From: an uncultured virus (IMG/VR IMGVR_UViG_3300025864_000013) | Lineage: Duplodnaviria; Heunggongvirae; Uroviricota; Caudoviricetes | Strand: one strand, 5' to 3' | Virus record (IMG/VR): IMGVR_UViG_3300025864_000013 | Length of the DNA: 20,000 nt | Notes under the pieces: model-generated | What the model was told of the DNA's origin: nothing | Database searches by the model: none | Seen by the model: the letters and a program-made list of their open reading frames with translations, nothing else | Part shown: positions 2,009-18,482 of the stretch, piece after piece | Layout: every line of letters starts with the position of its first letter | Numbering within the stretch: position 1 is the stretch's first letter | Translations under genes and position numbers: made by a program

Positions 2009-2479
2009 TTAAATCATTACTTTATTTATAAATAATCCTATTATCACTGTCACGAAAGCGGCCACCTCAATCCACCATGCCGTATTCTTATTTTTCCAAA
2101 GTATAAATCCGGTAGCGAGTAACATTGGCACAACCAAATACCACTGATGAAAATTAAGCCACAACATCAACATTCCGACTGCTATTCCAGCATCAGCACC
2201 AAAATTATGGATGAATTGAGTTAACTTATCTCCGCTACCAGTTCTTGCTGCACCGTCAAAGCAAAGTAAACTACCTGCAATCATTCCTAAAGCATTGTCA
2301 GTGATAAGAATAATAGGAATTGATATTCCCCACATGAATAGTGTGTAATAAGCCTCCTGTGATTGTTTAAATAGTAGATAGCTACTAGAAATAGAAGGCT
2401 GAACACCCCATCTCTTTACTACCATTAAAACGTACCAAAGAAATACCGCTATTGTGAAAATCAATCCTGCTATTATCAT
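2009..2479 (-). CDS. Multi-pass membrane protein (156 aa)
   Basis: About five hydrophobic stretches; start overlaps the stop of the giant gene by 4 nt. Confidence 0.7.
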   Translation of the reverse strand: MIIAGLIFTIAVFLWYVLMVVKRWGVQPSISSSYLLFKQSQEAYYTLFMWGISIPIILITDNALGMIAGSLLCFDGAARTGSGDKLTQFIHNFGADAGIAVGMLMLWLNFHQWYLVVPMLLATGFILWKNKNTAWWIEVAAFVTVIIGLFINKVMI

Positions 2480-5400: not shown

Positions 5401-7839
5401 CAGTTCGGTTGCCAACAATGCTTCACGGTCGAGTATCAATGCAGCAAGTAAACTTTCAATAAATTCCTTTCCAGCCTCTGTGAATGTTGTTTCACTGAAA
5501 AATGCGGGTAGTTCCTGTTCGGTTAATAAGTTGCACTCAATTAAAGTCTTTGAGAGTTGTTTTTGGGCTTGTATGTTAGCGTAAAATTCCGTGAATGTCT
5601 CATATTCCCCAACAATGCCTGCAATAATCTCAGCGCATCTGCTGTTATCCCTGAGTATATTGGAAAGTTTTATTGCTTTATCAATTGGCCGTTCTGACTT
5701 CTTTGTGTCCTTATTATACTTTGCGAGTTCCTGAGTAGTATATTCTGGGAAGTCAAGATCAATACGGACGAGAACTGGCTGAGTAAAATGAACTGTTACA
5801 TCATTCTTATCTGTTGCAACCAACTTATCGTCAGAAACAAAGCTGTGAGCAAAACCAAAGCTCTCTGCTTCTTCACCTAAAAACTTCACATATTCCTTAT
5901 AATTTTCAGGATAATTCTTCGCAGCGAGTTTCAATGACATAGTGCGGTTGTTGCCAGACACCACGAAACCGTCTTTTGTCACTATCGGGGTTCCTGATGG
6001 AGTACGGCTTGTTGTTATCAATCTTTCGGGCTCCAATTCCCTTGCATAGTCCATTACTGCCTTTTGTGCTGAAAGATCGCCTGAGTAGTTCCGGTCATTG
6101 ATATTATTACCGCTTGCGTTCTTTGGATATGATGACTCGCTATGAAAATTCTCTTCATTGTGACTTGCAATGATATTATTCAGATCAACAATCGCGAATA
6201 ATGCATTTCTCTTTTCACCATTCGGCATTGATAACTGGATCTCACGGCCTTTTAATAAGTTCTTGGTCATGAAGTCGGGACGCATGGAGCCAGGTTTGTT
6301 TTTACCTGATGGCGCAAACTGATTACCAAGTACTCTATTGTATTCGGTATTATTCCTATTTCGAAAATCAATAATAGTGCCGATTAAGTCCTTTAATTTA
6401 ATTAATTCACTGGTATTACCACCAGTGGAAATTATATCAGTTGCGCCCTCTTCTAACTGATTAATTAGGTTATCAAGTTCTTCGGTTGTTTTATCTTCCA
6501 AATCTCTTTTAGAAAGGCTTAATATTTGCTGAAATTCATCGGTTTTCTCCTGCCAAACTTCCTGCACGGCTTGGTCTGAAACTGTTTCGTCATCGTCAGA
6601 TAATACTGTCTCCAAATGCGCAATCCTTTCATCAATAGTTTTCCATTCTCCCCTCCATGACTTTTCAGGAGTAGGCTTACTGTTTAATCTGGAATATGAC
6701 TGAATAAGTTTTGAATCTGACAACACGCTATCAAAATCAGTTACGCTTACTGATGGGTGCATTCCGGCCATTTTATCATAATCACCTATGATTATAAGAT
6801 ATTCATCTCCAATACCTGCACTAAATATCTTACATGAATTAACGTATGGTTTTAATTCTTTTAGAAACTCCAAATACTGAGGTATTGTTTTTGTTTTTAG
6901 CTTGTAGTACATTGTCGTTTCCTTCATTGTACTTGGTTTTTCTTCTTTTACTGGCTCGGTTTTTAATTCAGGGTAATCAATCAAAACTTTTTCAGGAATA
7001 GATTTACCCTCTTTAATGGCATTTTCAAGAATAGCCTTATACTCCCAATCCATGTTCCGGTTCTTTATAAAAGCGACCATTGCTATTTTTTCATTTTTCA
7101 GCATGGTTAATGCTAGTTTTTTTGTGGCCCAGCTGGTAGTAGGATTCCCATCAGGCCTATTTGCGTACCACTTGCGACTAGTGGGGCTTTTCATTACCTC
7201 TTTTTCAGGACTCCAGGCTTCATATTTCTTTATCCAATAATCACGATATTGTTGTTTTGTCCATTTCCAAAACACTGGTTTCTCAGGAATATTATTATCT
7301 GGCTGTTCTCTTGATGGGATAATAGACTTACCCTCTGATCTGGCCCTATCCATTAATTCAGCAATCTTCCTTTTAGCATACAGAAAACTATTCTCATCGG
7401 TAATTTTAACCTTGCTTAGATTAATGTTAATTCCGTATTCAGCATCTTCAATATTTTTCTTTATACCAGTACCAAAATTATCTTCACTTATTTCTTTTTC
7501 GTATGCTTCTCGGAGAAGATATATTTTGTATTTTTCATGAATGGCCTCGTTATTTTTCCAGCCATATACCTCTCTGCCTTCTTTCAGATATTCATTGAAT
7601 GATTTTATTGGTTGATTCTCAATAGACATAGTGGGAACTTCGGACAATGATAATGGCACATTAAAGTATTCATGTACGGCAGTCCAGTCCTTTTGGCTAA
7701 ATTGCTTCCAGTAAAGATTATTGTACTTACTCCAACGGAAATGATTAACCGCTAACCATGTTTTATCTTGCTGAGAGAGCTGATCCTCAAAAGTAATTTC
7801 TATGCCAGCTTTTTTCAGATTCCGTACAATGATTGCCAT
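2476..7839 (-). CDS. Large polyvalent protein (DarB/DdrB-like): ParB-like domain, HExxE metalloprotein-like module, C-terminal N6-adenine DNA methyltransferase (1787 aa)
   Basis: MTase motifs YSGYGGL, EFYTP, EPSVGVG and GNPPY (NPPY at 2782-2793); ParB-like segment AIVDLNNIIASH...GTPIVTKDGFVVSGNNRTM (~5940-6200) resembling ddrB-type ParB; HELFE...AHELA at ~4370-4440. Confidence 0.8.
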   Translation of the reverse strand: MAIIVRNLKKAGIEITFEDQLSQQDKTWLAVNHFRWSKYNNLYWKQFSQKDWTAVHEYFNVPLSLSEVPTMSIENQPIKSFNEYLKEGREVYGWKNNEAIHEKYKIYLLREAYEKEISEDNFGTGIKKNIEDAEYGININLSKVKITDENSFLYAKRKIAELMDRARSEGKSIIPSREQPDNNIPEKPVFWKWTKQQYRDYWIKKYEAWSPEKEVMKSPTSRKWYANRPDGNPTTSWATKKLALTMLKNEKIAMVAFIKNRNMDWEYKAILENAIKEGKSIPEKVLIDYPELKTEPVKEEKPSTMKETTMYYKLKTKTIPQYLEFLKELKPYVNSCKIFSAGIGDEYLIIIGDYDKMAGMHPSVSVTDFDSVLSDSKLIQSYSRLNSKPTPEKSWRGEWKTIDERIAHLETVLSDDDETVSDQAVQEVWQEKTDEFQQILSLSKRDLEDKTTEELDNLINQLEEGATDIISTGGNTSELIKLKDLIGTIIDFRNRNNTEYNRVLGNQFAPSGKNKPGSMRPDFMTKNLLKGREIQLSMPNGEKRNALFAIVDLNNIIASHNEENFHSESSYPKNASGNNINDRNYSGDLSAQKAVMDYARELEPERLITTSRTPSGTPIVTKDGFVVSGNNRTMSLKLAAKNYPENYKEYVKFLGEEAESFGFAHSFVSDDKLVATDKNDVTVHFTQPVLVRIDLDFPEYTTQELAKYNKDTKKSERPIDKAIKLSNILRDNSRCAEIIAGIVGEYETFTEFYANIQAQKQLSKTLIECNLLTEQELPAFFSETTFTEAGKEFIESLLAALILDREALLATELPGVKAIRQKLLTALPVLMKNASLPEGSLKQKFNDAVILQYNIKGSTFADFIRQRTMFGDKYDRKTVYLNRLIDSGKIKFKQAIEGYNSAIMQNQGASLFGEKPSLDKIFNHWIIGGVSETDKKLIEGSDMVSKESDTKVPLDVIQPDYGKMKEPWQMTAKEYRDATEKTVGKPLDQFIDEQMEYHMKNQHPVTREQLEKQYGNHLDIIKEAIAQGNPVPENIRSEYPELQPKKDFIKDHIIIGGIPKYEFKPEPDYHKVFLREQEGMRLYLVDGEQVRKDHIEFVSGGHGFVYDWIPNKDEVWIDDNQKDKPADMEATIKHELFEIGKMRDEGLSYDDAHELANAMEKEVRNEQEEKNNPTVVHVLKNHSPYGIDRAIVSFINHNFDVHNEYFDRDLAIVEENPNYNTAEKLKKAIDRQIAEWEDKSLAITAEIAQWINTGGEYIKTLPAYAVEMKRSEGWLYLAEKAKELKGILFDAEKEVRNDEPNLEQERQLRVEKLIENQGAYIKETGTPLWEKREGNNITDPEVAIVSEEMTYPTQTEEEVAAIPEDAWSEPKITFNEWQQVSELDASYKIEVITKTDPMYVDGWRYEMTIGYPESLGENGNYDAGNFFKEMPDKQTIKDEIKNVITEAYNDLKEGGEFLSGRDESIKKALRKIIHPARISKPEVKDIFPDLTEKQLADTGLEDYVQTLIKEEGKSISYTLSDYTSEYELNKDIEKALDEHWYDTSFFDDKHDFIRAYSGYGGLKEVTGNEELLKSMYEFYTPDAIVAKMWGLADKHRKFAIESVCEPSVGVGIFFDPRYVLSSVQRKTAYELNKYSARITKILYPDVIVNDGADSMKFEMVFTKNNYTIGAKIPKPTHDLVIGNPPYMEVSGREMGMGEGRYSHAKNYIDYFIFRGLDLLKKDGLLIYIVGAEVAAGGKLWLDQGDSKCKQAIAEKGKLIDAYRLPEGIFGRTNVVSDILIFRKKIKL
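3947..4362. repeat. Exact 20-bp direct repeat TCATTCCGTACTTCTTTTTC at 3947-3966 and 4343-4362
   Basis: Read directly; 396-nt (132-codon) spacing, both copies encode EKEVRN in frame. Confidence 0.9.
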
Positions 7840-10016: not shown

Positions 10017-10395
10017 CTTTCAATGCTTTTTTAATTTTACCTAAAAGATCACTTGTAATTAGTTTGTAAAAAATATCAATATGCTCTCTGAATAATATTC
10101 TTACCAATAGTTCTTTTATCCTGAAATATCTATTTTTCTTCGTAAGCCTGATTGTGATATTAAGCCCAAAATCTGACCATAAATCTAAAAGAATAGAGCC
10201 TATTATTATAATTGCAAAAAAAGAAGCGAGCAGATTTAAAACCGGAATGGCTACCAAAAATACCTTGAAAGCAAATTGGCCCTCGTCAAACGCAGTATAA
10301 GTACGCTTATGTTTTTTCTTTCCTATTTCCATCAGGATAATTAGCACACAAGCTCCAACGACACAGGATAGATATATTTTAAATAGCAGTGGCAT
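9916..10395 (-). CDS. Membrane protein, two TM segments (159 aa)
   Basis: Two hydrophobic segments; 3' end overlaps the HTH gene by ~100 nt. Confidence 0.55.
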   Translation of the reverse strand: MPLLFKIYLSCVVGACVLIILMEIGKKKHKRTYTAFDEGQFAFKVFLVAIPVLNLLASFFAIIIIGSILLDLWSDFGLNITIRLTKKNRYFRIKELLVRILFREHIDIFYKLITSDLLGKIKKALKDEKAKHQSKSETHIEPAGENQKASIEGESNNPA

Positions 10396-10407
10396 GGTTA
10401 CGGCGGC

Positions 10408-11493
10408 TTATTCAACATATTGGCTTATCATCATAGGCATAAGCAATATTTGCTCCTGAAAAATAAAGGCTCTTGTGTTATCCTTAAATCCCATAGTTAT
10501 CTGTATATGGCCTTCGTCCAAAAAACATTTCAGTATTCGCCTTAGAAATAATACTTTCATTCCAAATTCAATTTCAGCATTATCAGGATTGATAATATTA
10601 ACCGTTTCTGATGCGGATATATCGAAGTCAATATCTTTACATGAGACATTCATTGTGTTGCCCTGTATTTTAGCGACGACTAACCATGAAGCCTGATTAG
10701 CTGCAAACTTAATTGCATCGAGTGCCTCGATGGTCTCTTTTACCGGAATTATAACAGTGTGCTCTATTGTCGGCAATACACTCCTCCAGTTTGGATATTT
10801 TGAATGGACTGCTGTGTCATTAAATACCGTGAGGTGGTCATTAAGATCCGACCGCCACCAGATTATCATATCTTCACTTTCCGCGCAAAGAAACTTTCCG
10901 GCAGTTTTCCCAATCTTAAAAGTTGTTGTGGGAAATAAGCGCATGAGCTTAATCACTCTTTTGTCAAACAATACTTCAATATTTTCGGTAATGCCTATTT
11001 TCCTGTAATAAAGGATATGCGCATCACTTGAAACAACAAAATGAGATCCTACACAAACCTGGCCCATAACAGGACGCAATTCATCGGATGCAACAAATTC
11101 AGAAGCAATATCCATTATCTCTATTTCTTTTGCGGAGACAGAAAATAATGGCTGCAGGTCTGTGTTGTTAATTTCTGCGGGAAACTCACTGAACTGTCCA
11201 TTTTTTAAAACTGAGCTACTTCCCGACTGTTCAAAGGTTATTTTTTCATCCTTGTTGCATGAAATAAGGAACGGAGCCCTGATGTGAGACATTCTCTGGA
11301 TGAAGTGATCAGAATTGACGGTAATGGGCTCAGAATCGCTCTTAATAGGAAATAAATGCCTAACCTTGACTCTTATTTCAAGGTTTGTGTAAGATATATA
11401 CTCGCGATCAATAGAAAAACATTCGAGTATTGGCATGGAGTTTCTAACTACCTTCAGTAAGGTTTTGATTGATTTTAATGTTTTGATTTTCAT
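10408..11493 (-). CDS. dnaN: DNA polymerase III beta (sliding clamp)-like protein, divergent phage copy (361 aa)
   Basis: Clamp-sized; motifs MPILECF, TNLEI, ASDELRPVMGQV, SSDAHIL, KYPNWRSVLP, IEFGMKVLFL and C-terminal LLMPM. Confidence 0.8.
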   Translation of the reverse strand: MKIKTLKSIKTLLKVVRNSMPILECFSIDREYISYTNLEIRVKVRHLFPIKSDSEPITVNSDHFIQRMSHIRAPFLISCNKDEKITFEQSGSSSVLKNGQFSEFPAEINNTDLQPLFSVSAKEIEIMDIASEFVASDELRPVMGQVCVGSHFVVSSDAHILYYRKIGITENIEVLFDKRVIKLMRLFPTTTFKIGKTAGKFLCAESEDMIIWWRSDLNDHLTVFNDTAVHSKYPNWRSVLPTIEHTVIIPVKETIEALDAIKFAANQASWLVVAKIQGNTMNVSCKDIDFDISASETVNIINPDNAEIEFGMKVLFLRRILKCFLDEGHIQITMGFKDNTRAFIFQEQILLMPMMISQYVE

Positions 11494-11517
11494 AACTGAG
11501 GTTTTAAAATAAATATA

Positions 11518-12189
11518 TCATAATTCTAGTAATAACCGAAAAGTGTATTTCCAAACCCAAGGATTAGAGGGCCATGAGCTGAAGCCATGAAGTTTAATCC
11601 ACGTATTTTGAAACTCCGCGATGCCATTAAATCCCTCGGCAATAGCTTCTTCCTCTGTGATATCATTTAGTTTTTGTGCAGTAACGTCGGTTACTTGGAT
11701 AAAGTAACGAGCGTATTTCTCCGGCATGAACATTTTATTATGCCAGTAATAATGTTTGTAACCCATTTCAAACTCGTAGGCCCTAAACTCTTCAACTTCT
11801 TTTTTGGCCCCATACTTATATGCAAATCGCTTTGACATGCTTTCACAATGTTCAGGCTCCCAAATAAAGTAAGGCTCTTTCAGAAATACGATTTCGCCAG
11901 GCTGATACCGAGGTTTTACATAAGCATTATCAAAATAGAACTGATCTCCCTCAAAAAGGCCATAGGTTCCTTTTAGTTTAATGAATTTTGGCTCTCCATC
12001 TTTATAGCAGACCATTTCTCCATCTTTATCTAGCTTGTAAACATCATCTGGATCTTCTTCCATACCTTCAAACGAGGGCTGTGACCAAAAGGTATAATCC
12101 GTTTTAGGGAAAATAATTCTCTTGGTTTGTGTTTTTTTGCCGCTTGTGGCAGCTAAAAACATCGGTTCTAAAAACATTATTCCTTGCAT
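11518..12189 (-). CDS. ASCH/PUA-like phage protein (223 aa)
   Basis: GIMF...SGKKTQTKR, PRYQPGEIVFLKE, MFMPEKYAR, LNDITEEEAIAEG, NPWVWKYTF pattern. Confidence 0.7.
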   Translation of the reverse strand: MQGIMFLEPMFLAATSGKKTQTKRIIFPKTDYTFWSQPSFEGMEEDPDDVYKLDKDGEMVCYKDGEPKFIKLKGTYGLFEGDQFYFDNAYVKPRYQPGEIVFLKEPYFIWEPEHCESMSKRFAYKYGAKKEVEEFRAYEFEMGYKHYYWHNKMFMPEKYARYFIQVTDVTAQKLNDITEEEAIAEGFNGIAEFQNTWIKLHGFSSWPSNPWVWKYTFRLLLEL

Positions 12190-12201
12190 TGATGATTTAG
12201 T

Positions 12202-12513
12202 TTAAGTAAATTTATACATGCCATTATCTTCAACTATCGTAGTTGTAAAGGGAAATTTATCTTTTGGGATACTTTCAATAACTTCAATTAAAGCTCTACC
12301 GGATGTAAATACAACATGCATTTCGTTATTAAATGAAACCTGTAGATATAAACACTTGCCCGAACCCTTCTTTTTAAAAGCCTCTATTTTAGTATCATCA
12401 ACTATGTACCGATGCACAGCAACCTCTTTATTAAGTATTCTGGTTATCTTTATTTTATCACCCTCTAGGGCTCTCTCTGGAATCTTAATATCAAACTGGC
12501 TAAACCTATTCAT
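12202..12513 (-). CDS. Small beta-rich protein coupled to the RT; candidate DGR accessory (103 aa)
   Basis: Start overlaps the RT stop by 8 nt; predicted strand-rich, unlike the all-helical Avd. Confidence 0.65.
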   Translation of the reverse strand: MNRFSQFDIKIPERALEGDKIKITRILNKEVAVHRYIVDDTKIEAFKKKGSGKCLYLQVSFNNEMHVVFTSGRALIEVIESIPKDKFPFTTTIVEDNGMYKFT

Positions 12514-13459
12514 GTAATAATTTTCTTAAAAGGTTTTTACTATTACAATGCGTTGCCCATCCTCTATATGATGCAATAGATTGAGGATTTTTGTTTCTTC
12601 TGAGCATCCGCGCAAATCTCTTTTTGATTGATTTTCTGAGTCGGGTATGAGTGTGATAAAAAACATAACCAACAAAGTCTATTCCCCTAACATCGACCGG
12701 AAATACTTGGTAATTAGCCTTAACTGTTAATTTAAGATTGTCCTGAAGATAGTTGCTTATTTCGGATAGGAGCTGGTGCAGATATGGCTTATTATCCGAT
12801 AGAATTACCATATCATCAGCATACCGGAAATAGTATTTTACATGTTTCTGCTCTTTCATCCAATGATCAAAATACGTGAGATAGAAGTTTGCAAAATACT
12901 GTGAGAGGTAGTTGCCGATCGGGAGTCCGGGGGCACTTTCGATAATTGAATCTAGTAGCCATAGAAGATCCATATCTTTAATTTTTCTCCGAAGTAGCTG
13001 CTTTAATATCGCATGATCAACATTAGGATAAAACTTCTTAATGTCAAGTTTAAGGCAATACTGAGTATTTGAAATATTTTTCAATGCTTCCCTCACTGAC
13101 CGGGCAGCTGCATGAATCCCCCGTTTTTTAATACAGCTATATGTATCTTTGGTAAAGACTGAAACAAAAATAGACTCAAGTGGTATCATGACGGCATGAT
13201 GAACTATACGATCAGGATAGTACGGCAGACGAAAAATAAGCCTTTCTTTGGGTTCATAAATTGGAAATGTTGTATATGGTGATGTTTTATATGTCTTTTC
13301 AACCAGCATTTTGTGCAGTTTAAGGATATTTTCAGTTGGGTTTTGGTCGAACTTAATCACTCCGGGTTGATTTTGTTTTCCTTTTCGGGCAATAGAATCT
13401 GCCAGCATCAGATTTTCGATGCTGCAGATCCTTTGGTATAAATTATTTTTACGCTTCAT
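12506..13459 (-). CDS. DGR reverse transcriptase (317 aa)
   Basis: YEPKERLI, DRIVHHA, LKLDIKKFYPNVDH, GLPIGNYLSQ (DGR-type SQ motif), RYADD catalytic motif, GIDFVGY; adjacent TR/VR pairs. Confidence 0.96.
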   Translation of the reverse strand: MKRKNNLYQRICSIENLMLADSIARKGKQNQPGVIKFDQNPTENILKLHKMLVEKTYKTSPYTTFPIYEPKERLIFRLPYYPDRIVHHAVMIPLESIFVSVFTKDTYSCIKKRGIHAAARSVREALKNISNTQYCLKLDIKKFYPNVDHAILKQLLRRKIKDMDLLWLLDSIIESAPGLPIGNYLSQYFANFYLTYFDHWMKEQKHVKYYFRYADDMVILSDNKPYLHQLLSEISNYLQDNLKLTVKANYQVFPVDVRGIDFVGYVFYHTHTRLRKSIKKRFARMLRRNKNPQSIASYRGWATHCNSKNLLRKLLHE

Positions 13460-13469
13460 GCCTTTGCCT

Positions 13470-13662
13470 TTGAAAGATCATTTTCTCCGAAGATACCAAC
13501 GCTCTTTAATTGTTTTTTGTTTTTTGCCATGTTGGCAGGGTTTATGCTGTAAATATCGCATAGGTGCGAACTGACATTCGTATTCGTGTTATCGTAGTTG
13601 TAATTCGTATTCGAAAAACTGAACCTGGACGACAAAAGTGGCAGCTCCATCAGCATACAACC
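13470..13662 (-). ncRNA. Predicted structured DGR RNA (TR plus flanking spacer); boundaries approximate
   Basis: Flanks GGTTGTATGCTG / CAGCATAAACC can pair around the TR; TGCCA-ACA-TGGCA hairpin; C-TTCG-G tetraloop at 13484-13493. Confidence 0.55.
13558..13635 (-). repeat. DGR template repeat (TR), 78-nt core
   Basis: TTGTCGTCCAGGTTCAGTTTTTCGAATACGAATTACAACTACGATAACACGAATACGAATGTCAGTTCGCACCTATGC; 23 adenines, 6 AAY codons; lies between target genes and RT. Confidence 0.95.
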
Positions 13663-13670
13663 AAAATTAA

Positions 13671-14087
13671 TTATTCTGAATAAAGAAAATATTCAACATA
13701 TTCGGATTCAAATTGCTTCGCAACGTACCGTGCTTTCTCACTAGTATCGGTGCAAAGGCGCGAACCGACACTCGTATACGTGTTAGCGTAGTTGTAAGTC
13801 GTATCCGAAAAACCGAACCCGGACGACAAAACTTCAAACCATGGATAATATTTGTACTGATTCCAATTACTCCAATCAGGTTTCCAGCCGTTGTTAATAG
13901 CTTTATAGATGATCATCAGTTTGTAAGCTGCAATGATCGGTTTCGCAAACTCTTGCAAAATACCTGAAACATCAGGAAGGTTTTTTGGATCTGCATTCAC
14001 TTTTTTACATGCATCTTCGAAGGTTTTGATTTTTTTATAATCAAACTCAGGGATGCTCTTTGCTACTTTTTTGTTTTTTGTTGCCAT
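13671..14087 (-). CDS. DGR target protein 1 (138 aa from MATKNKKV)
   Basis: Contains VR1; start revised to ATG 14087 by homology to paralog 2 and to avoid overlap. Confidence 0.9.
   Translation of the reverse strand: MATKNKKVAKSIPEFDYKKIKTFEDACKKVNADPKNLPDVSGILQEFAKPIIAAYKLMIIYKAINNGWKPDWSNWNQYKYYPWFEVLSSGFGFSDTTYNYANTYTSVGSRLCTDTSEKARYVAKQFESEYVEYFLYSE
13752..13829 (-). repeat. Variable repeat VR1
   Basis: 10 mismatches to TR in 78 nt, all at TR adenines; encodes LSSGFGFSDTTYNYANTYTSVGSRLC. Confidence 0.95.
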
Positions 14088-14095
14088 GGTTAAAT

Positions 14096-14512
14096 TTATT
14101 TTGGGTTCACATTTAAGAGCCAGCTCTTCCATAGATCAGGGAACTGTTCAAGTATATATATCGCCTTCTCTGATGAATTTGTGCAAAGGCGCGAACCGAC
14201 AGACGCAGTCGAGGAATCGTAGCCGCAATGCGTACCCGAAAAACCGAACCCGGACGACAAAAGCCAGGGCCACGGGTAATACCTTGGCTGCGTTTGATTG
14301 CTGAAATCAGGCTCCCAGCCATCGTTTATTGCTTCAAAAATTACCATCAGGATGAAGGCTGTTAGTAGTGATGCCCGAAACTTTTCAGGAATCATTGAGT
14401 GATCAGGAAGGAGCGATGGATCATATCCGCATTTCCGGAATGCATCCTCTTGCGTTTTGATTGTTTTGAAATCAAATACATCTTTCTTTTTTGTTACTTT
14501 TTTTGTTGCCAT
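14096..14512 (-). CDS. DGR target protein 2 (138 aa)
   Basis: Paralog sharing IKT.EDA, AINxGWxPDxSN, YYPW; contains VR2. Confidence 0.9.
   Translation of the reverse strand: MATKKVTKKKDVFDFKTIKTQEDAFRKCGYDPSLLPDHSMIPEKFRASLLTAFILMVIFEAINDGWEPDFSNQTQPRYYPWPWLLSSGFGFSGTHCGYDSSTASVGSRLCTNSSEKAIYILEQFPDLWKSWLLNVNPK
14183..14260 (-). repeat. Variable repeat VR2
   Basis: 18 mismatches to TR, all at TR adenines; encodes LSSGFGFSGTHCGYDSSTASVGSRLC. Confidence 0.95.
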
Positions 14513-14524
14513 TTTGTATTATTG

Positions 14525-14980
14525 CTAAGTTAAAAATTCTTTATAAAGTTGCAGAAATTGCTTACCTGCATAGATTGCTTTTTCTTCAGATTCAAAGCAA
14601 AGGCGCGAACCGACAAACGCATCCGTGCGATCGTAGTAGTAAGTCGTACTCGAAAAACCGAACCCGGACGACAAATTAAAGTACGGCCACCATTTACGTT
14701 GATTAGTATTGCTCCAATCTGGGGCCCAGCCCTGGTTGATAGCCTTAATTATAATTTTTAGTTTCTTGTAAGCAATCTCATCAGGAGTATCAAATCCAGC
14801 ACCAATAAATACTGCGCCAGAATTGATGTCTAACTCTTCACAGGCATGCTCGAAGGTCTTAATCTCTTCAAAACTTTTTTTCACGAAGATGTTCATCCCG
14901 AACGCTTCTTCAAGTTCTTTTTTAAACCAATCCTCTACTTTAGGATATAGTTTTTTTGCTGTTTGTTTTGTGATTTTCAT
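14525..14980 (-). CDS. DGR target protein 3 (151 aa from MKITKQ)
   Basis: Paralog with a different N-terminal extension; contains VR3; likely ATG at 14980. Confidence 0.88.
   Translation of the reverse strand: MKITKQTAKKLYPKVEDWFKKELEEAFGMNIFVKKSFEEIKTFEHACEELDINSGAVFIGAGFDTPDEIAYKKLKIIIKAINQGWAPDWSNTNQRKWWPYFNLSSGFGFSSTTYYYDRTDAFVGSRLCFESEEKAIYAGKQFLQLYKEFLT
14597..14674 (-). repeat. Variable repeat VR3
   Basis: 14 mismatches to TR, all at TR adenines; encodes LSSGFGFSSTTYYYDRTDAFVGSRLC. Confidence 0.95.
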
Positions 14981-15143
14981 AATATATAATTTTAATTTGA
15001 CCAATAATAATATCCTATCAGTTCATTAAAAGCAGTGGAATATCTTTTTATTCCAAAATAGTGGTATTGCCACCTTATCAACGGCCATTCAGTCTGAACC
15101 GTTGGTTTTGTTACGTCTTGGAGAGTGTACACTATTTTCATGG

Positions 15144-15467
15144 CTAAAAGTTTGAAAGGTTTTTAAGAATTGTTTCATAGAAGCCATAATCAATCCGACC
15201 ATCAGGAAGAAGGATTGCTTCGCCAGATATAATCTGTTTGTGAATAACCTCAAAGCTATGAGTGTTAATTCTAAAAGACCGAATTGTAATATGCGTTTTA
15301 AAGTCCTTTACTCGCTCATCTTGTATAGTATAGAGTAACTGAATTAAAACTCTTGGATCGTTTGGGTTAAATTCAAACCCTTCATTTACATCATCCATGT
15401 TCTTGACATAGCTACAAATAGAAGCCGTGAACAGGTCATAAATCATTTTTTGAAATACATTTTTCAT
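15144..15467 (-). CDS. Hypothetical protein (107 aa)
   Basis: ORF track, co-oriented with neighbours. Confidence 0.55.
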   Translation of the reverse strand: MKNVFQKMIYDLFTASICSYVKNMDDVNEGFEFNPNDPRVLIQLLYTIQDERVKDFKTHITIRSFRINTHSFEVIHKQIISGEAILLPDGRIDYGFYETILKNLSNF

Positions 15468-15480
15468 AATACAAGGTTTT

Positions 15481-15525
15481 AAAAAGCCGGTAACGGGGCT
15501 TTGATATTATCTCACCCCGACCGAC
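15481..15525 (-). terminator. Possible intrinsic terminator after 15535..15729
   Basis: Minus strand GTCGGT-CGGGG...CCCCG-TT-ACCGGC followed by TTTTT; large loop and a bulge. Confidence 0.4.
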
Positions 15526-15534
15526 TAAGGTTTC

Positions 15535-15729
15535 TTAAATATGTTTAGACTTTTGCTCGTACATTTCAGCCTTTTCGATAAGTTGCTGAGTTGTAAAACC
15601 ATTATACATACCAGTTCCAGTTCTTAGTGATCTTTCAACCATTTTTCTAAGGCCCGTTGCATTTGCAGCATAATGAAGTTTAATTGTGGATTCTGGAAAC
15701 TGATGTCCAAGAAATGTTATTGTGTTCAT
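15535..15729 (-). CDS. Small hypothetical protein (64 aa)
   Basis: ORF track; flanked by a perfect 10-bp inverted repeat. Confidence 0.55.
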   Translation of the reverse strand: MNTITFLGHQFPESTIKLHYAANATGLRKMVERSLRTGTGMYNGFTTQQLIEKAEMYEQKSKHI

Positions 15730-15875
15730 CTTAGTCGGTTTTAATTGTTTCCGAAAGGTCTGAAATGATTTTCAGATAAACAAGTCTTTTTGTTATTTAT
15801 ACAGCATAAAAATAAGCATATTGCTGAATACTAAGGACATGCTTAAATAATTTAGAATGATTTTATGTAAATAGA

Positions 15876-16952
15876 CTAGATAGGCCCGTTACTTTCTCCG
15901 AAAGCTCCTGATGGTAATTCCCATTTGTCAGTAAACACCGGAAGAGTATATTTATTGCTTAATGCACAGGCAAGGATGCCTTTTTTACGAAACTCAGGAC
16001 TGTATTCTTTGCCTTTCTCTGCCCTCTGGTCAACATTCATAGTTCTATGGATAGTAACACCAAACTCCTTTTCATAATTAGCTATCTTTTTAAGTCCGGC
16101 TGGATCTATACTTTTTATTGTGGCCCACTGGTTATTAGAACCAAAAATACATTTCATACATGATAGCCTTCCCCATCCAAGTCTATAAGCGGGATGCGGA
16201 TTAACTTTATGCTTTTTCATAATGTCCCAGACCTCTTGTTCCTTCCATGAGTGAACCGGCCTCCAGTGATCTACAAGTCTTCCCTTGGCTCCTGTTCTAT
16301 TATCTGCGCGATCTGGTTCAAACTCTTTATACTTTGCTCTGGAAGGGCTTTCTTCGGCTCTTTCACCGGAAATAACAAGCGTTCTTTTGTTATGAAAGCG
16401 TTCCTGATTATTTATAGCAGCGGTGCAAACATCAATTTTGAGATATGCACTACACCAACGGACACTTAAATCTGCCGATACCTGGGGAAACTTTTGTCTG
16501 GTTCCTTCGGGCCCTCTTCCCCCAGATAATCCACACTCAATAATATTGTCGTCTGGGTACTGCCAATGATTTTGTGATGTTGGTGTGTTTTTTCTGAGCA
16601 TCTCGCGCTCAAAGCCTCCTTCTTTCCAACTGAAATAAATAGGCTGATTAAAGGCCTTGGCGACTTCCCGGCAGTAATCCTCAGTTACCGGCCAATCCAT
16701 AAGATTTGATCCTTCTTTGCCGTCAACTAGGTGATGCCATAGTTCAATTTTGCTTTTATCAATGCCAATATCGAGTAAATGAAGATAGCAGGCCAGAGAA
16801 TCTTTGCCGCCGGAGAAAGCCAAAATGTAATAATCGTAGCTTTTAATCTCTATTTTGGGTGCGGAAACTGCCATCTCAGGAGAAAGCGCCTTAATTTCTT
16901 CCATCATTTTTTCGGCATCCGAAATGGCTCTGGAGTGAGAAACACTATCCAT
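15876..16952 (-). CDS. PAPS reductase family (PP-loop, Fe-S cysteines) phage protein (358 aa)
   Basis: AFSGGKDS PP-loop, RWCSAYLK, ISGERAEESPSRA, HPAYRLGWGRLSCMKCIF. Confidence 0.85.
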   Translation of the reverse strand: MDSVSHSRAISDAEKMMEEIKALSPEMAVSAPKIEIKSYDYYILAFSGGKDSLACYLHLLDIGIDKSKIELWHHLVDGKEGSNLMDWPVTEDYCREVAKAFNQPIYFSWKEGGFEREMLRKNTPTSQNHWQYPDDNIIECGLSGGRGPEGTRQKFPQVSADLSVRWCSAYLKIDVCTAAINNQERFHNKRTLVISGERAEESPSRAKYKEFEPDRADNRTGAKGRLVDHWRPVHSWKEQEVWDIMKKHKVNPHPAYRLGWGRLSCMKCIFGSNNQWATIKSIDPAGLKKIANYEKEFGVTIHRTMNVDQRAEKGKEYSPEFRKKGILACALSNKYTLPVFTDKWELPSGAFGESNGPI

Positions 16953-16963
16953 AATTATGTTTT

Positions 16964-17581
16964 TTAGATATTAAACTGGCTGAACTCCTGCATATACTTA
17001 CTTACAGAGGTTCCATTACAGTCTGCAAAATTATTACTGCCAGTTAAAAAATGTTGTACCCCGCCGATTCCGGCTAAGTGGGCCGCGGCGAGTAACCCGC
17101 CTTTTGTAATAACTACACCCTGGATTGTTTCTCCAATATAGTCTTCAAATCTTTTTTCAGACAACTTGCTTACTCGGTTCTTTAGTGATAATTCATTTTC
17201 TCGAATTAATGCCATTAGGGCCTCATCTTGCATTTCTGGGGAAAATATTGAGGGATCTACCTTAAATTTTTCAGGTGTTATTCCGGCGAATCCGAGTTTT
17301 TCAAGAGTATCGCTACAAAACTGATAGGTTCCCATATAGCCATAATCATTACATATTTTCCAGTTATTCCCTGACTCCTTAAACCCCATTAAAGACTTCC
17401 ACTTGGTAATTTCTTCTTTATAGATTAGTTTTTTAAAGGCTTTTTCTTTTTCTGTGGCCCATCTTTTGATCTCAGATAATGCAAATAGTTTATTCTGTTT
17501 TGTAAGGCTTTTTGAAATTGGCGGCGCGATAAGGCTTTGAAAGGCTAAGATTAAAATTGCAATTAATGTAATTCGCTTCAT
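16964..17581 (-). CDS. Lysozyme-like / lytic transglycosylase-like protein with N-terminal signal or anchor (205 aa from MKRITL)
   Basis: KESGNNWKICNDYGYMGTYQF (ES...GxxGxYQF) and AAAHLAGIGGV motifs; start revised to ATG 17581 (basic then hydrophobic leader). Confidence 0.7.
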   Translation of the reverse strand: MKRITLIAILILAFQSLIAPPISKSLTKQNKLFALSEIKRWATEKEKAFKKLIYKEEITKWKSLMGFKESGNNWKICNDYGYMGTYQFCSDTLEKLGFAGITPEKFKVDPSIFSPEMQDEALMALIRENELSLKNRVSKLSEKRFEDYIGETIQGVVITKGGLLAAAHLAGIGGVQHFLTGSNNFADCNGTSVSKYMQEFSQFNI

Positions 17582-17592
17582 TGTCTTAATTT

Positions 17593-17718
17593 TTAGTGAA
17601 TAAATTGAGGAAATATATATACGAGTAGTAATGTTGATACTCCGTATGCTATTGCGACCAGCAAGGCTACTCCAAGAAGGAATAGGGCTGCGTTTCTGAT
17701 CTGGATTAGTATTTTCAT
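17593..17718 (-). CDS. 41-aa hydrophobic membrane peptide missed by the ORF track (MKILIQIRNAALFLLGVALLVAIAYGVSTLLLVYIFPQFIH)
   Basis: Translated by hand; starts 4 nt after the -7 promoter box and ends 11 nt before the lysozyme-like ATG. Confidence 0.6.
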   Translation of the reverse strand: MKILIQIRNAALFLLGVALLVAIAYGVSTLLLVYIFPQFIH

Positions 17719-17722
17719 AAGG

Positions 17723-17755
17723 CAAAGGTATGTAATTTATATTATATGGGTCAAA
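17723..17755 (-). promoter_or_regulatory. Bacteroidota-type primary sigma promoter
   Basis: Minus strand TTTG (17755-17752), N21, TACCTTTG (17730-17723), matching the -33/-7 consensus TTTG/TAnnTTTG. Confidence 0.65.
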
Positions 17756-17789: not shown

Positions 17790-18482
17790 CTAAAACAGTT
17801 TCAATTGTTGTTTATGGATCTGGAATCTTTCTTCCTGATCTTTAAAAAACTCTTCGTTATTTTCGCATGAGTAAAAATCAAAACCTCCATCAAAACAGGC
17901 TATTCTACTGGCCCCGCTTCCTAGGTTTGGGTCAAGTATAATGTCTCCGGGCTTTGCGTACTTTCTTAGCATCCATTGATAAATTGGAATTGGCTTTTCG
18001 GTTGGATGAATGCGTCTTTGATTCTTTTTTTTATTTCCCTGCATAGTTGCGCCATCGCCGGGAGTCCCTTGTAACATGCCATTCCATAAAAACCGGAATA
18101 GCCGTGTTGAGTGATGGAAACTACAATAAGCAATTTCACAGTCAGAAAAGTTTGTTCCTTCATTACACTTATCCCAGATAATACGACCTGCAGAGAATGG
18201 AAGATCAACCCTTCCAAGAAAATAGTTAATTCCAAAGATAATCTGGTGTTTTGAAACTCGAAATAGTTGATCAAAGTATTCTTGTGGGGGAATGTCGCTA
18301 TCCCAAAACTCCTTCCGGTACATTCTTGTTTTTGCGAGCTTCGTTCTTGATATATTTCTATGGGCCGACTCTTTTATCCCGTATTGCGGATCTGCAATAA
18401 CTATGTTTGCAAATTTATCCGGGAGGGTCTTCATGTATTTAATATTATCTATCAAATACGCTTCGCTGATCGGCTCTTTCAT
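17790..18482 (-). CDS. Orphan DNA methyltransferase, N6A/N4C beta-class (230 aa)
   Basis: ADPQYG (motif IV variant), IIWDK, HPTEKP, ILDPNLGSGAS (motif I); no cognate endonuclease visible. Confidence 0.85.
   Translation of the reverse strand: MKEPISEAYLIDNIKYMKTLPDKFANIVIADPQYGIKESAHRNISRTKLAKTRMYRKEFWDSDIPPQEYFDQLFRVSKHQIIFGINYFLGRVDLPFSAGRIIWDKCNEGTNFSDCEIAYCSFHHSTRLFRFLWNGMLQGTPGDGATMQGNKKKNQRRIHPTEKPIPIYQWMLRKYAKPGDIILDPNLGSGASRIACFDGGFDFYSCENNEEFFKDQEERFQIHKQQLKLF

What the first reader, a model, noticed from the sequence alone, without database searches (positions are those of the whole stretch)
13671..14980. DGR targets are small, apparently cytoplasmic proteins in the replication/early region, not tail fibres
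Seen: targets are only 138-151 aa, with no signal peptide or obvious anchor. They share IKTxExA-AINxGWxPDxSN-(YY/WW)P(W/Y)-LSSGFGFS-x-VGSRLC-xxSEEKA-like motifs, and the VR ends 23-28 codons before the stop. They lie next to clamp, ASCH, PAPS-reductase and MTase genes, about 11 kb from the structural genes. Established: the best-studied phage DGR (Bordetella BPP-1 Mtd) diversifies a tail receptor-binding protein with a terminal CLec VR. Inference: these are minimal CLec-like binders acting inside the cell, for example a hypervariable anti-defence or host-takeover family, possibly forming a hetero-oligomer with combinatorial diversity.
Basis: partly seen in the sequence, partly recalled or inferred. 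Interest (0 to 1): 0.85.

Follow-up and report, generated by a model that had tools for sequence, protein, structure and literature searches.

The report
Phage mutator aimed at small soluble proteins
A phage from a peat sample carries a mutation-generating retroelement that rewrites one short stretch in three small sister proteins of unknown shape and function, encoded away from recognisable tail genes; a related case is already in print, but what these proteins bind is still unknown.

Summary
The window carries a diversity-generating retroelement (DGR). It consists of a reverse transcriptase (12506-13459, minus strand), a 79-nt template core (13558-13636) and three variable repeats in three tandem paralogous genes of 138, 138 and 151 aa. 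All 42 template/variable mismatches lie at template adenines.

The targets belong to phrog_11581, a large unnamed phage family: 3751 clusters. Distant members are the remote, non-tail second DGR targets of LoVEphage and phage Versailles. Benler et al. 2021 published that kind of target for Quimbyvirus.

Four things differ here:
- The small proteins are the only targets found.
- They come as a conserved long-plus-short gene pair, often fused into one protein elsewhere.
- A conserved 103-aa gene follows the RT instead of Avd.

'Non-structural' is supported by context only. Hetero-oligomer formation has weak support: score 0.37, best control 0.00. Action inside the cell remains an inference. I rate this a new variant of a known kind, of moderate interest.

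The parts
12506..13459 (-). DGR reverse transcriptase, 317 aa, one intact frame
   Evidence: Pfam RVT_1 E 1.1e-17. phrog_1423 'Reverse transcriptase' E 5.9e-125. Orthologues stand next to the same cassette in 13 of 14 IMG/VR loci (the fourteenth, L019, ends inside its family gene) and in 20 of 27 genome loci.
13558..13636 (-). Template repeat (TR) core, 79 nt with 23 adenines. It encodes LSSRFSFSNTNYNYDNTNTNVSSHLC.
13456..13656 (-). 66-aa ORF that carries the TR. It is a truncated relic of a target-family gene and overlaps the RT start by 4 nt.
   Evidence: Family HMM built from A2 hits it at E 3.8e-8. Equivalent relic ORFs occur in relatives.
13671..14087 (-). Target T1, 138 aa, short type
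   Evidence: phrog_11581 E 3.3e-29. AlphaFold model pLDDT 85.8, pTM 0.80.
13752..13830 (-). VR1 in T1: 10 of 10 mismatches at TR adenines; ends 26 codons before the stop
14096..14512 (-). Target T2, 138 aa, short type
   Evidence: phrog_11581 E 2.1e-23. AlphaFold model pLDDT 79.2, pTM 0.75.
14183..14261 (-). VR2 in T2: 18 of 18 mismatches at TR adenines; ends 28 codons before the stop
14525..14980 (-). Target T3, 151 aa, long type with an N-terminal extension
   Evidence: phrog_11581 E 4.8e-28. The upstream gene is the longer one in 20 of 22 genome loci that hold two or more family genes.
14597..14675 (-). VR3 in T3: 14 of 14 mismatches at TR adenines; ends 23 codons before the stop
12202..12513 (-). 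103-aa gene that overlaps the RT stop; candidate DGR accessory protein (phrog_19665)
   Evidence: phrog_19665 E 8.3e-9. A homologue directly follows the RT in 28 of 31 related loci with enough DNA. Atlas lead: the top cluster scores 0.95 with 216 shared features, and 44% of its members carry PF17427 Phi29_Phage_SSB. No Pfam hit at E<=10.

Best explanation
This is a diversity-generating retroelement laid out as targets, then TR, then RT, then a small accessory gene.

How diversification works. This mechanism is established for DGRs in general; nothing in the window contradicts it. The RT copies the TR transcript into cDNA and misreads adenines, and the cDNA replaces the homologous 79-nt stretch in each of the three target genes.

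What is varied (shown here). In each target 12 codons lie between fixed flanks (SSGFGFS ... VGSRLC). Ten of them differ among the three copies. These ten alone allow about 3e9 variants per protein (15^6 x 4^4, computed).

What the targets look like (shown here). They are three paralogues of a very large, unnamed family of small soluble phage proteins, phrog_11581. The predicted shape is a helical scaffold with a long beta-hairpin. The variable residues lie on the second strand of the hairpin and the loop after it. Fully variable Asn codons alternate with restricted Thr/Tyr codons, as expected for one exposed face of a strand.

What they do (inferred). I read them as hypervariable binding proteins that are not virion parts. 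They probably work as long-plus-short pairs (T3 with T1 or T2). They are probably made alongside the phage's DNA-modification and replication genes, and they take part in phage-host or phage-phage conflict, for example by binding variable host defence proteins.

My odds:
- DGR with three real targets: about 0.97.
- Targets are not virion parts: about 0.6.
- Targets work as pairs: about 0.5.
- Counter-defence specifically: about 0.3.
For: DGR anatomy and adenine-only mismatches.

Recent activity of the same cassette type in nature. In near-identical IMG/VR contigs from different samples, L008 differs from L009 at 12 of 2024 nt, 11 of them inside one VR. L011 differs from L009 at 13 of 1903 nt, 12 of them inside another VR and all at TR-A positions.

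The small proteins are the only targets found. The window holds only the 4 pattern matches. Two relatives were probed with their own TR:
- G001 (34.5 kb, 96% complete by CheckV): TR plus 3 VRs, all in the cassette.
- G003 (43.7 kb, 92% complete): the cassette only.

Context outside head and tail modules recurs:
- Phage Versailles: between NinB and the replisome organizer.
- LoVEphage: among methyltransferases, a PAPS reductase and RtcB.
- Mu-like prophages L034 and L048: after the early genes, followed by a PAPS reductase or an anti-repressor.
- L041: between a primase and two methyltransferases.
- L016: between a primase plus methyltransferase and the head genes.

The family occurs in phages labelled Siphoviridae, Podoviridae and crAss-like. 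It also occurs in Mu-like and HK97-type genomes. A dedicated tail part would not be expected to spread that widely.

Working as a pair:
- 22 of 27 genome loci hold two or more tandem family genes, and in 20 of these 22 the first gene is the longer one.
- 44 of 57 long homologues are two complete domains fused in tandem.

One homologue (P0297, partial, from a KSB1 MAG) fuses the domain behind a response-regulator receiver and a PAS domain, both cytoplasmic modules. It is the only one of 69 long forms with any Pfam domain.

The proteins are soluble, with no membrane segment.
Against: No experiment or expression data bear on location. No RNA run was listed, and only contigs could be laid.

Context is not uniformly early:
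- In the closest relatives the cassette lies between TerS and TerL (L009), or directly before TerL (L014).
- In Mu-like contigs L012, L013 and L020 the small target, with its own TR, lies 1.3 kb upstream of a 451-aa 'tail protein' target.
- In the window a lysozyme-like gene lies 2 kb away.

Phage Versailles annotates its family member as 'tail protein'. That protein shares only the 38-aa VR with the true tail-side target.

All genes in the window are on one strand, so strand gives no timing clue.

The REC-PAS fusion is a single partial MAG protein and could be an assembly chimera.

In contigs from run X3, VR1 and VR3 are identical to the window. Ongoing diversification of this very element is therefore not shown.
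Confidence: 0.5

Rival explanations
1. The small proteins are virion accessories: detachable adhesin tips or decoration proteins. They would be encoded outside the structural block and dock onto a fibre or capsid, so the DGR changes host range as it does in BPP-1.
For: - In L009 and L014 the cassette abuts the terminase genes.
- In L012, L013 and L020 it lies next to a 451-aa phrog_5302 'tail protein' DGR target.
- In LoVEphage and Versailles the family member uses the same TR as the tail-side target.
- Published surveys find most viral DGR targets annotated as tail proteins (Roux et al. 2021, PMC8144416, passages read).
- Published second targets of the DUF6273 type are read as receptor binders (bioRxiv 10.1101/2024.10.15.618418, passages read).
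Against: - No head or tail family hit for any of the three proteins.
- The family occurs across phages with different tail types.
- No docking domain can be recognised.
- In phage Versailles the family member and the tail-side target share only the 38-aa VR.
- In two near-complete relatives no structural gene carries a VR.
- One homologue is fused to cytoplasmic signalling domains.
Confidence: 0.25
2. The proteins are soluble binders released at lysis, or exposed after it. They would bind host surface glycans or environmental ligands, for example to mask receptors on debris or on lysogens. They would be neither virion parts nor intracellular agents.
For: - They are small, soluble proteins.
- A lysis-type lysozyme gene is nearby in the window, and an endolysin gene lies upstream in L013.
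- DGR variable proteins characterised so far act on surface ligands (my own background knowledge; no call).
Against: - No export signal.
- No carbohydrate-binding family was detected.
- The conserved placement beside DNA-modification and replication genes is not explained.
Confidence: 0.1
3. The target genes have little function for the phage. Target, TR and RT travel together as a self-maintaining cassette, and the small genes persist as its homing sites.
For: - The same module (targets, TR relic, RT, 103-aa gene) appears in unrelated phage backbones.
- The TR itself sits in a truncated family gene.
Against: - Scaffold residues are strongly conserved across 46 sequences, with 9 invariant and 24 nearly invariant columns.
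- In all three VRs the TR adenines of scaffold codons carry the same replacement (AGG to GGG, AGT to GGT twice, CAC to CGC), which indicates selection on the protein.
- At least four genome loci (L030, L036, L052, L053) keep family genes with no RT in the fetched stretch.
Confidence: 0.05

Closest known systems
Second, distal DGR target of Quimbyvirus ('Quimbyviridae'; Benler et al. 2021, Microbiome 9:78, PMC8008677; passages read), examined here in LoVEphage MW660583 and phage Versailles ON453897
   Same: - Same protein family. The LoVEphage ORF 33613-34197 and the Versailles ORF 10181-10762 hit the A2 family HMM at E 3e-18 and 8e-18, and tblastn gives 27-32% identity.
- They are true DGR targets: their 3' parts match the TR beside the RT at 83-86% over 112-113 nt.
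- They lie among replication, recombination and DNA-modification genes.
- LoVEphage shares the three-frame RT that Benler et al. describe.
   Different: - In those phages the family member is a single remote target (14 kb or more from the TR) that shares its TR with a tail-side target. Here three tandem copies lie next to the TR and are the only targets found.
- Those proteins are about 193 aa with a 38-aa lectin-type VR. Here they are 138-151 aa with a 26-codon VR.
- Benler et al. call both targets C-type lectin proteins. The models made here do not show that fold.
- That LoVEphage is a Quimbyvirus relative is inferred from shared features, not shown by a tree.
Bordetella phage BPP-1 DGR (mtd-avd-TR-brt)
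   Same: Target(s), TR and RT in one cassette, adenine-specific mutagenesis, and AAY codons at the variable sites.
   Different: - Mtd is a 381-aa trimeric tail-fibre tip with a C-terminal C-type lectin VR. This description is from my own knowledge and the abstracts listed; I did not compare sequences here.
- Here the targets are small, carry 23-28 residues after the VR, and match no lectin model.
- No Avd family was found among the window's proteins (Pfam). A conserved 103-aa gene follows the RT instead.
Small second DGR targets of gut Firmicutes phages: Roseburia phage Shimadzu orf43 (bioRxiv 10.1101/575076), Faecalibacterium Toutatisvirus, Lelie and CP11 DUF6273 proteins (PMC11792537; bioRxiv 10.1101/2024.10.15.618418)
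   Same: A phage DGR rewrites a small protein of unknown function that is encoded far from the tail genes. Activity at such a site was shown by reads for Shimadzu.
   Different: - A different family: the window's targets give no DUF6273 hit, or any Pfam hit, at E<=10.
- Those proteins are second targets beside a tail target. The papers describe them as lectin-like with a C-terminal VR.
phrog_11581 (PHROGs v4, 'unknown function')
   Same: All three targets match it (E 2e-23 to 3e-29), as do the relatives' genes.
   Different: The PHROG carries no function, no link to DGRs and no fold.

Membership tests
Diversity-generating retroelement | Reverse transcriptase of the DGR type next to the repeats | tested here: met
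   RVT_1 E 1.1e-17. phrog_1423 E 5.9e-125. 48% identity to the RT beside the TR of phage Versailles.
Diversity-generating retroelement | Template and variable repeats that differ almost only at template adenines | tested here: met
   42 of 42 mismatches lie at TR adenines across the three VRs. The A-to-N pattern gives 4 exact matches against 0.00 expected.
Diversity-generating retroelement | VR lies in the 3' part of a protein-coding target, with AAY-rich TR codons | tested here: met
   Six AAY codons in the TR, and the VR is in frame in all three targets.
Diversity-generating retroelement | Accessory variability determinant (Avd), common but not universal | tested here: not met
   No Avd family was reported among the 23 window proteins in Pfam or NCBIfam. 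A 103-aa phrog_19665 gene follows the RT here and in 28 of 31 related loci.
Diversity-generating retroelement | Diversification seen in a population | tested here: inconclusive
   Seen in close relatives: 11 of 12 and 12 of 13 differences fall in a VR. Not seen for this element itself: only contigs were available, and the X3 contigs are identical over VR1 and VR3.
C-type lectin-fold DGR variable proteins (Mtd, TvpA type) | C-type lectin fold around the VR | tested here: inconclusive
C-type lectin-fold DGR variable proteins (Mtd, TvpA type) | Sequence membership in a lectin-type family (FGE-sulfatase, DUF1566 or DUF6273; family names recalled, except DUF6273) | tested here: not met
   No such family at E<=10 for T1, T2 or T3. 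The PDB sequence searches gave only one unrelated chain (6pis_A, a potassium channel, E 0.054) for T2 and none for the A2 profile.
C-type lectin-fold DGR variable proteins (Mtd, TvpA type) | VR at the extreme C-terminus | tested here: not met
   23 to 28 residues, predicted to be helical, follow the VR.
phrog_11581 small phage protein family | Significant profile match over the domain | tested here: met
   E 3.3e-29, 2.1e-23 and 4.8e-28. 233 homologues among 240 candidates. 3751 clusters at E<=1e-3.
Phage tail fibre or receptor-binding protein | Homology to tail families, or a place inside the tail module | tested here: not met
   No tail family in Pfam, PHROGs or NCBIfam. The flanking genes are the RT and small unknown ORFs, then a PAPS reductase.
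Phage tail fibre or receptor-binding protein | Presence in the virion | not testable with these tools
   No proteome data. The papers read on isolates that carry the family give none.

The most novel reading that the evidence does not exclude
phrog_11581 is a third kind of DGR display scaffold, alongside the C-type lectin fold and the disputed Ig-like fold. It would be a helical mini-domain that presents a hypervariable beta-hairpin. It would be used in long-plus-short pairs, rather like a two-chain binding site. Phages of Bacteroidota would use it as a repertoire of binders that work inside the cell against variable host defence proteins or rival phages. The same DGR class would also have replaced Avd with an SSB-like accessory protein.
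Probability: 0.22. Interest if true: 0.85.

Novelty: new variant of a known kind. Interest (0 to 1): 0.55.

Why it matters
DGRs create the largest known protein sequence variation, yet in phages the only worked-out use is changing the tail fibre. A very large family (3751 clusters at 50% identity) of small soluble proteins is the sole, paired target of a conserved DGR cassette in many Bacteroidota phages and prophages. This implies a second, unexplored use of targeted hypermutation.

If the proteins act inside the cell, they would be the first phage-encoded repertoire of variable binders for conflict with host immunity or with other phages. If they are adhesins, they are a new minimal receptor-binding module.

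Either way the domain is small (about 120 residues) and has a defined 12-residue variable face. That makes it an attractive natural scaffold for structural study. The question can be tested directly in cultured Bacteroides phages that carry distant family members.

Tried and rejected
- Whole genome: none is held.
- Megablast of 12000-16000 against the phage collection: no match.
- Scan of metagenome contigs with the full TR pattern: 0 matches, so the source contig could not be extended.
- Sequencing runs: five holders, all peat or soil DNA kept as contigs, and no RNA holder listed.
- Laying contigs of X1-X4 showed breaks at the repeats and no VR variants. X3 contigs are identical to the window over VR1 and VR3. 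Contigs drop rare variants, so this says little.
- Fold searches found no lectin or other fold.
- BFVD gave only uncharacterised family members.
- The Atlas gave only unnamed viral clusters for T2.
- PDB sequence searches with T2 and with the A2 profile: only one unrelated chain (6pis_A, a potassium channel, E 0.054) for T2 and nothing for the profile. The same search with the Versailles tail-side target: nothing.
- PADLOC: no defence family for the targets.
- Pfam on 69 long homologues in search of informative fusions: only P0297 had any domain. By eye, P0234 ends in a helix-turn-helix-like stretch and P0210 starts with a CxxC...CxxC stretch. Pfam does not confirm either, so I do not use them.
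- Complex prediction on T3 plus T1: verdict 'weak support'. Runs scored 0.10, 0.37 and 0.75 (median 0.37), against 0.00 for the best of 3 controls. Partner pLDDT was at least 68, and the runs agreed in at least 63% of contacts. At 0.60 or under, only 18 of 157 solved complexes reached the mark, as did both mismatched pairs that passed. My own alignments were used.
- MW202615, which holds a 48% homologue of ORF 102-884, has neither the family nor the 1787-aa protein.
- The sigma-70 promoter and terminator scan of 11400-16000 gave fewer promoter-like sites than shuffles (7 against a mean of 16) and nothing that defines a transcription unit. Bacteroidota promoters are not covered by that scan.
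- Tentaclins (abstract read) were rejected as relatives: they are a lectin domain followed by Ig domains, and no Ig domain is present here.
Full report
**What is there**

All ORFs of note in the window lie on the minus strand. Read in the direction of transcription, the region runs as follows:
- a DNA methyltransferase (17790-18482);
- a lysozyme or transglycosylase-like protein (16964-17725);
- a PAPS-reductase/DndC-like protein (15876-16952);
- two small unknown ORFs;
- three paralogous small genes: T3 (14525-14980, 151 aa), T2 (14096-14512, 138 aa) and T1 (13671-14087, 138 aa);
- a 66-aa ORF (13456-13656);
- a reverse transcriptase (12506-13459, 317 aa);
- a 103-aa gene that overlaps the RT stop (12202-12513);
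- an ASCH-like protein;
- a weak sliding-clamp candidate;
- further unknown ORFs;
- a 1787-aa ParB-methylase protein.

**The DGR is real**

The repeat finder finds one family of four 121-nt copies. The 79-nt core of the copy next to the RT, written with N at each adenine, matches exactly four places with no mismatch: TR 13558-13636, VR1 13752-13830, VR2 14183-14261 and VR3 14597-14675. None was expected in 200 shuffles.

The TR differs from VR1, VR2 and VR3 at 10, 18 and 14 positions, and every one is a TR adenine. The core holds 23 adenines.

The TR encodes LSSRFSFS-NTNYNYDNTNTN-VSSHLC. Its 66-aa ORF is itself a truncated family member (family HMM E 3.8e-8).

In all three VRs the adenines of five flanking codons carry the same replacement: R to G, S to G twice, H to R, and one silent change. 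This restores the family motifs SSGFGFS and VGSRLC. Ten of the twelve codons between these flanks differ among the three copies.

The six AAY codons sit at positions 1, 3, 5, 8, 10 and 12 of that stretch. They alternate with ACG and TAC codons, which can reach only four residues each. This is the pattern of one exposed face of beta-strands.

From, the ten codons that differ allow 15^6 x 4^4, about 2.9e9 variants per protein. The script's printed figure of 1.2e10 also counts one codon beyond the repeat, which I leave out.

**What the targets are**

None of the three has a Pfam family, even at E<=10. None has an NCBIfam family beyond one chance-level row for T3, and none has a PADLOC family.

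All three match phrog_11581, labelled 'unknown function', at E 2e-23 to 3e-29.

The word-indexed search found 233 homologues among 240 candidates. The 120 listed are 111-149 aa long and none has a precomputed Pfam domain.

A full hmmsearch with the 46-sequence profile found 3751 clusters (50% identity) at E<=1e-3 and 2110 at E<=1e-10. The median length of the best 150 is 145 aa.

The proteins are hydrophilic, with Lys-rich N-termini and no membrane segment. T2's central helix reaches a Kyte-Doolittle mean of 1.67, but the same helix carries Lys or Glu in the paralogues.

**Fold**

| Target | Alignment | pLDDT | pTM |
|---|---|---|---|
| T2 | 46 rows | 79.2 | 0.75 |
| T1 | 98 rows | 85.8 | 0.80 |

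The elements agree in both models. For T1, in the model's own numbering (one more than T1's, because of the extra first residue): a short helix (24-30), a long helix (46-66), a beta-hairpin (80-87 and 94-102) and two C-terminal helices (117-135). The variable residues, T1 95-106, lie on the second hairpin strand and the loop after it, where confidence is lowest.

Foldseek against the PDB gave no match at E<=0.001 for either model.

BFVD returned five matches at E<=0.001. All are 'uncharacterized' proteins with 24-30% identity, from entries labelled Siphoviridae, crAss-like, Podoviridae and uncultured Caudovirales.

The 'CLec-like' label therefore has no support here. The searches cannot prove that the fold is new.

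**Link to published cases**

tblastn against 50,697 phage records found 8 records, 7 from Bacteroides and 1 from Phocaeicola, at 27-43% identity.

In phage Versailles the homologue (annotated 'tail protein') lies between NinB and the replisome organizer. In LoVEphage it lies among a cytosine methyltransferase, a PAPS reductase, Dam and RtcB.

Both phages have an RT elsewhere in the genome. In LoVEphage it is split over three frames. In both, the 3' part of the small gene matches the TR next to that RT at 83-86% over 112-113 nt. A second VR lies in the gene just upstream of the TR.

This matches what Benler et al. [quoted passage not shown]

In phage Versailles the two targets share only the 38-residue VR, at 71% identity.

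Other small second DGR targets are in print for Roseburia phage Shimadzu (bioRxiv 10.1101/575076, passages). They are also in print for Faecalibacterium phages, where the proteins are DUF6273 (PMC11792537; bioRxiv 10.1101/2024.10.15.618418). Those belong to a different family.

Roux et al. 2021 note that uncharacterised domains over VRs may be new lectin variants (PMC8144416).

My literature searches turned up no description of this family as a sole or tandem DGR target. I did not see the supplements of these papers, and they may list such targets.

**The cassette in relatives**

IMG/VR loci:
- Of 14 IMG/VR loci, 13 have the RT beside one to three family genes. The fourteenth, L019, ends inside its family gene.
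- In the 10 loci with an RT that are not Mu-like, every adjacent family gene has a VR whose mismatches fall almost only at TR adenines.
- Three Mu-like contigs (L012, L013, L020) carry two TRs for one RT. One lies directly behind the small gene. The other serves a 451-aa phrog_5302 'tail protein'.

Genome loci:
- Of 27 loci in the GTDB genome collection, 26 come from Bacteroidota (Prolixibacteraceae, Draconibacterium, Maribellus, Chitinophaga, Bacteroidales and others) and one from a Cloacimonadota MAG.
- 22 of the 27 hold two or more tandem family genes. In 20 of those 22 the first gene is the longer one (about 150-240 aa followed by about 135-144 aa). An RT lies within the fetched stretch in 20 of 27.
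- L030, L036, L052 and L053 keep family genes with no RT in the stretch.

Genes around the cassette:

| Locus | Order of genes |
|---|---|
| L009 | TerS, targets, RT, TerL |
| L014 | targets, RT, 103-aa gene, TerL |
| L016 | primase, methyltransferase, targets, RT, then head protease further on |
| L034 (Mu-like) | early genes, targets, RT, 103-aa gene, PAPS reductase |
| L048 (Mu-like) | early genes, targets, RT, 103-aa gene, anti-repressor |
| L041 | primase, three targets, RT, 103-aa gene, two methyltransferases |

The module is therefore mobile among backbones. It sits at the junction of the early and late regions, usually beside DNA-modification genes and sometimes beside the terminase.

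**Only small targets, and recent activity**

Two relatives were searched with their own TR:
- G001 (34.5 kb, 96% complete by CheckV) has the TR and three VRs only in the cassette.
- G003 (43.7 kb, 92% complete) has matches only in the cassette. BLAST reported one of its two known VRs, so sensitivity is imperfect.

Among near-identical contigs from different samples:
- L008 differs from L009 at 12 of 2024 positions, 11 of them inside one VR.
- L011 differs from L009 at 13 of 1903 positions, 12 of them inside another VR and all at TR-A positions.
- L007 and L010 are identical to L009.

That is the signature of recent retrohoming into these small genes.

For the window's own element only contigs from peat metagenomes were available, and they show no VR variants.

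**Do they work together?**

- Of 57 homologues of 235 aa or more, 44 are two complete family domains in tandem.
- Nine are a single domain split by an insertion; most of them follow an unknown N-terminal part of about 145-190 residues.
- One (P0297, a partial protein from a KSB1 MAG) is a response-regulator receiver plus PAS plus the family domain.
- Complex prediction on T3 plus T1 gave 'weak support'. The median score was 0.37 (runs 0.10, 0.37, 0.75), against 0.00 for the best of three controls. Partner pLDDT was at least 68 and the runs agreed in at least 63% of contacts. By the tool's own counts, passes at or below 0.60 are more often wrong than right unless the guess was already likely.

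With the conserved gene pair and the fusions, I put pairing at about even odds.

**Function**

Shown:
- a DGR;
- three soluble paralogous targets of a huge phage family;
- a conserved pair layout;
- a place outside recognisable head and tail modules;
- spread across phage types.

Inferred: the proteins are binders (by analogy with every characterised DGR target), they are not virion parts, and they serve in conflict with host defences or rival phages.

The neighbourhood argument is the same one Benler et al. used, and it is no stronger here. Points against it are the terminase-adjacent position in the closest relatives, the tail-protein neighbour in Mu-like contigs and a lysozyme-like gene 2 kb away in the window. 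The missing signal peptide does not discriminate.

I keep the virion-adhesin rival at 0.25.

**Earlier notes of this scan**

These notes are unchecked AI notes. They describe the same theme in other genomes, including a soil crAss-like phage with two small sister targets of an unnamed family with no known fold (e1-6124660) and Quimby/LoVE-type remote targets (e1-5865255). I re-derived the LoVEphage and Versailles result myself. I did not compare sequences with e1-6124660.

**Verdict**

- The finding is a new variant of a known kind: a DGR aimed solely at paired small non-lectin-looking proteins, with an unusual accessory gene.
- Interest is moderate, 0.55. The general idea is published and the function is still open, but the family is very large, its fold is unassigned, and the question can be tested in cultured Bacteroides phages.

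Noticed in passing
window 12202-12513 (-): A 103-aa gene (phrog_19665) overlaps the RT stop. A homologue directly follows the RT in 28 of 31 related loci. The Atlas feature search puts it nearest a cluster in which 44% of members carry PF17427 Phi29_Phage_SSB (score 0.95, 216 shared features). Pfam gives nothing at E<=10. It may be an SSB-like DGR accessory that stands in for Avd.
   Followed up: partly
L013 10001-14288 (also L012, L020): Mu-like phage contigs carry one RT but two template repeats. One lies directly behind the small family gene (L013 10440-10533). The other serves a 451-aa phrog_5302 'tail protein' (L013 13101-13212).
   Followed up: partly
window 2476-7839 (-): A 1787-aa protein carries a ddrB-type ParB domain (E 6.5e-16) and a C-terminal Eco57I/N6 methylase domain (E 4e-9 and 1.5e-5). 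It may be a DNA-modification or anti-restriction protein.
   Followed up: no
protein P0297 (377 aa, KSB1 MAG, partial): A response-regulator receiver and a PAS domain are fused in front of a family domain that is cut by the contig end. This is the only informative fusion among 69 long forms, and it could be an assembly chimera.
   Followed up: partly
protein P0059 (138 aa): Its C-terminal part reads like the TR-bearing ORF (NYDNTNTNVSSHLC followed by the sequence downstream of the TR) rather than a VR. It is either an assembly join between VR and TR, or a retrohoming event that carried TR-flanking sequence.
   Followed up: no
window 16964-17725 (-): A 253-aa protein has a hydrophobic stretch near residue 50 and a lysozyme or transglycosylase-like C-terminal part: PHROG 'baseplate hub subunit and tail lysozyme' 4.4e-10, endolysin 3.9e-4, and Pfam Transglycosylas below its cut-off. 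A lysis or tail-lysozyme gene thus sits inside the supposed early region.
   Followed up: no
window 15876-16952 (-): The PAPS-reductase-like protein is closest to BrxP and DndC models in PADLOC (5e-13 and 3e-9). PAPS-reductase genes also neighbour the cassette in LoVEphage and L034.
   Followed up: no
whole window: The near-identical holders are peat-metagenome runs. Published family members are from gut Bacteroides phages and genome hits are from aquatic, sediment and soil Bacteroidota MAGs. The family is therefore not confined to the gut.
   Followed up: partly
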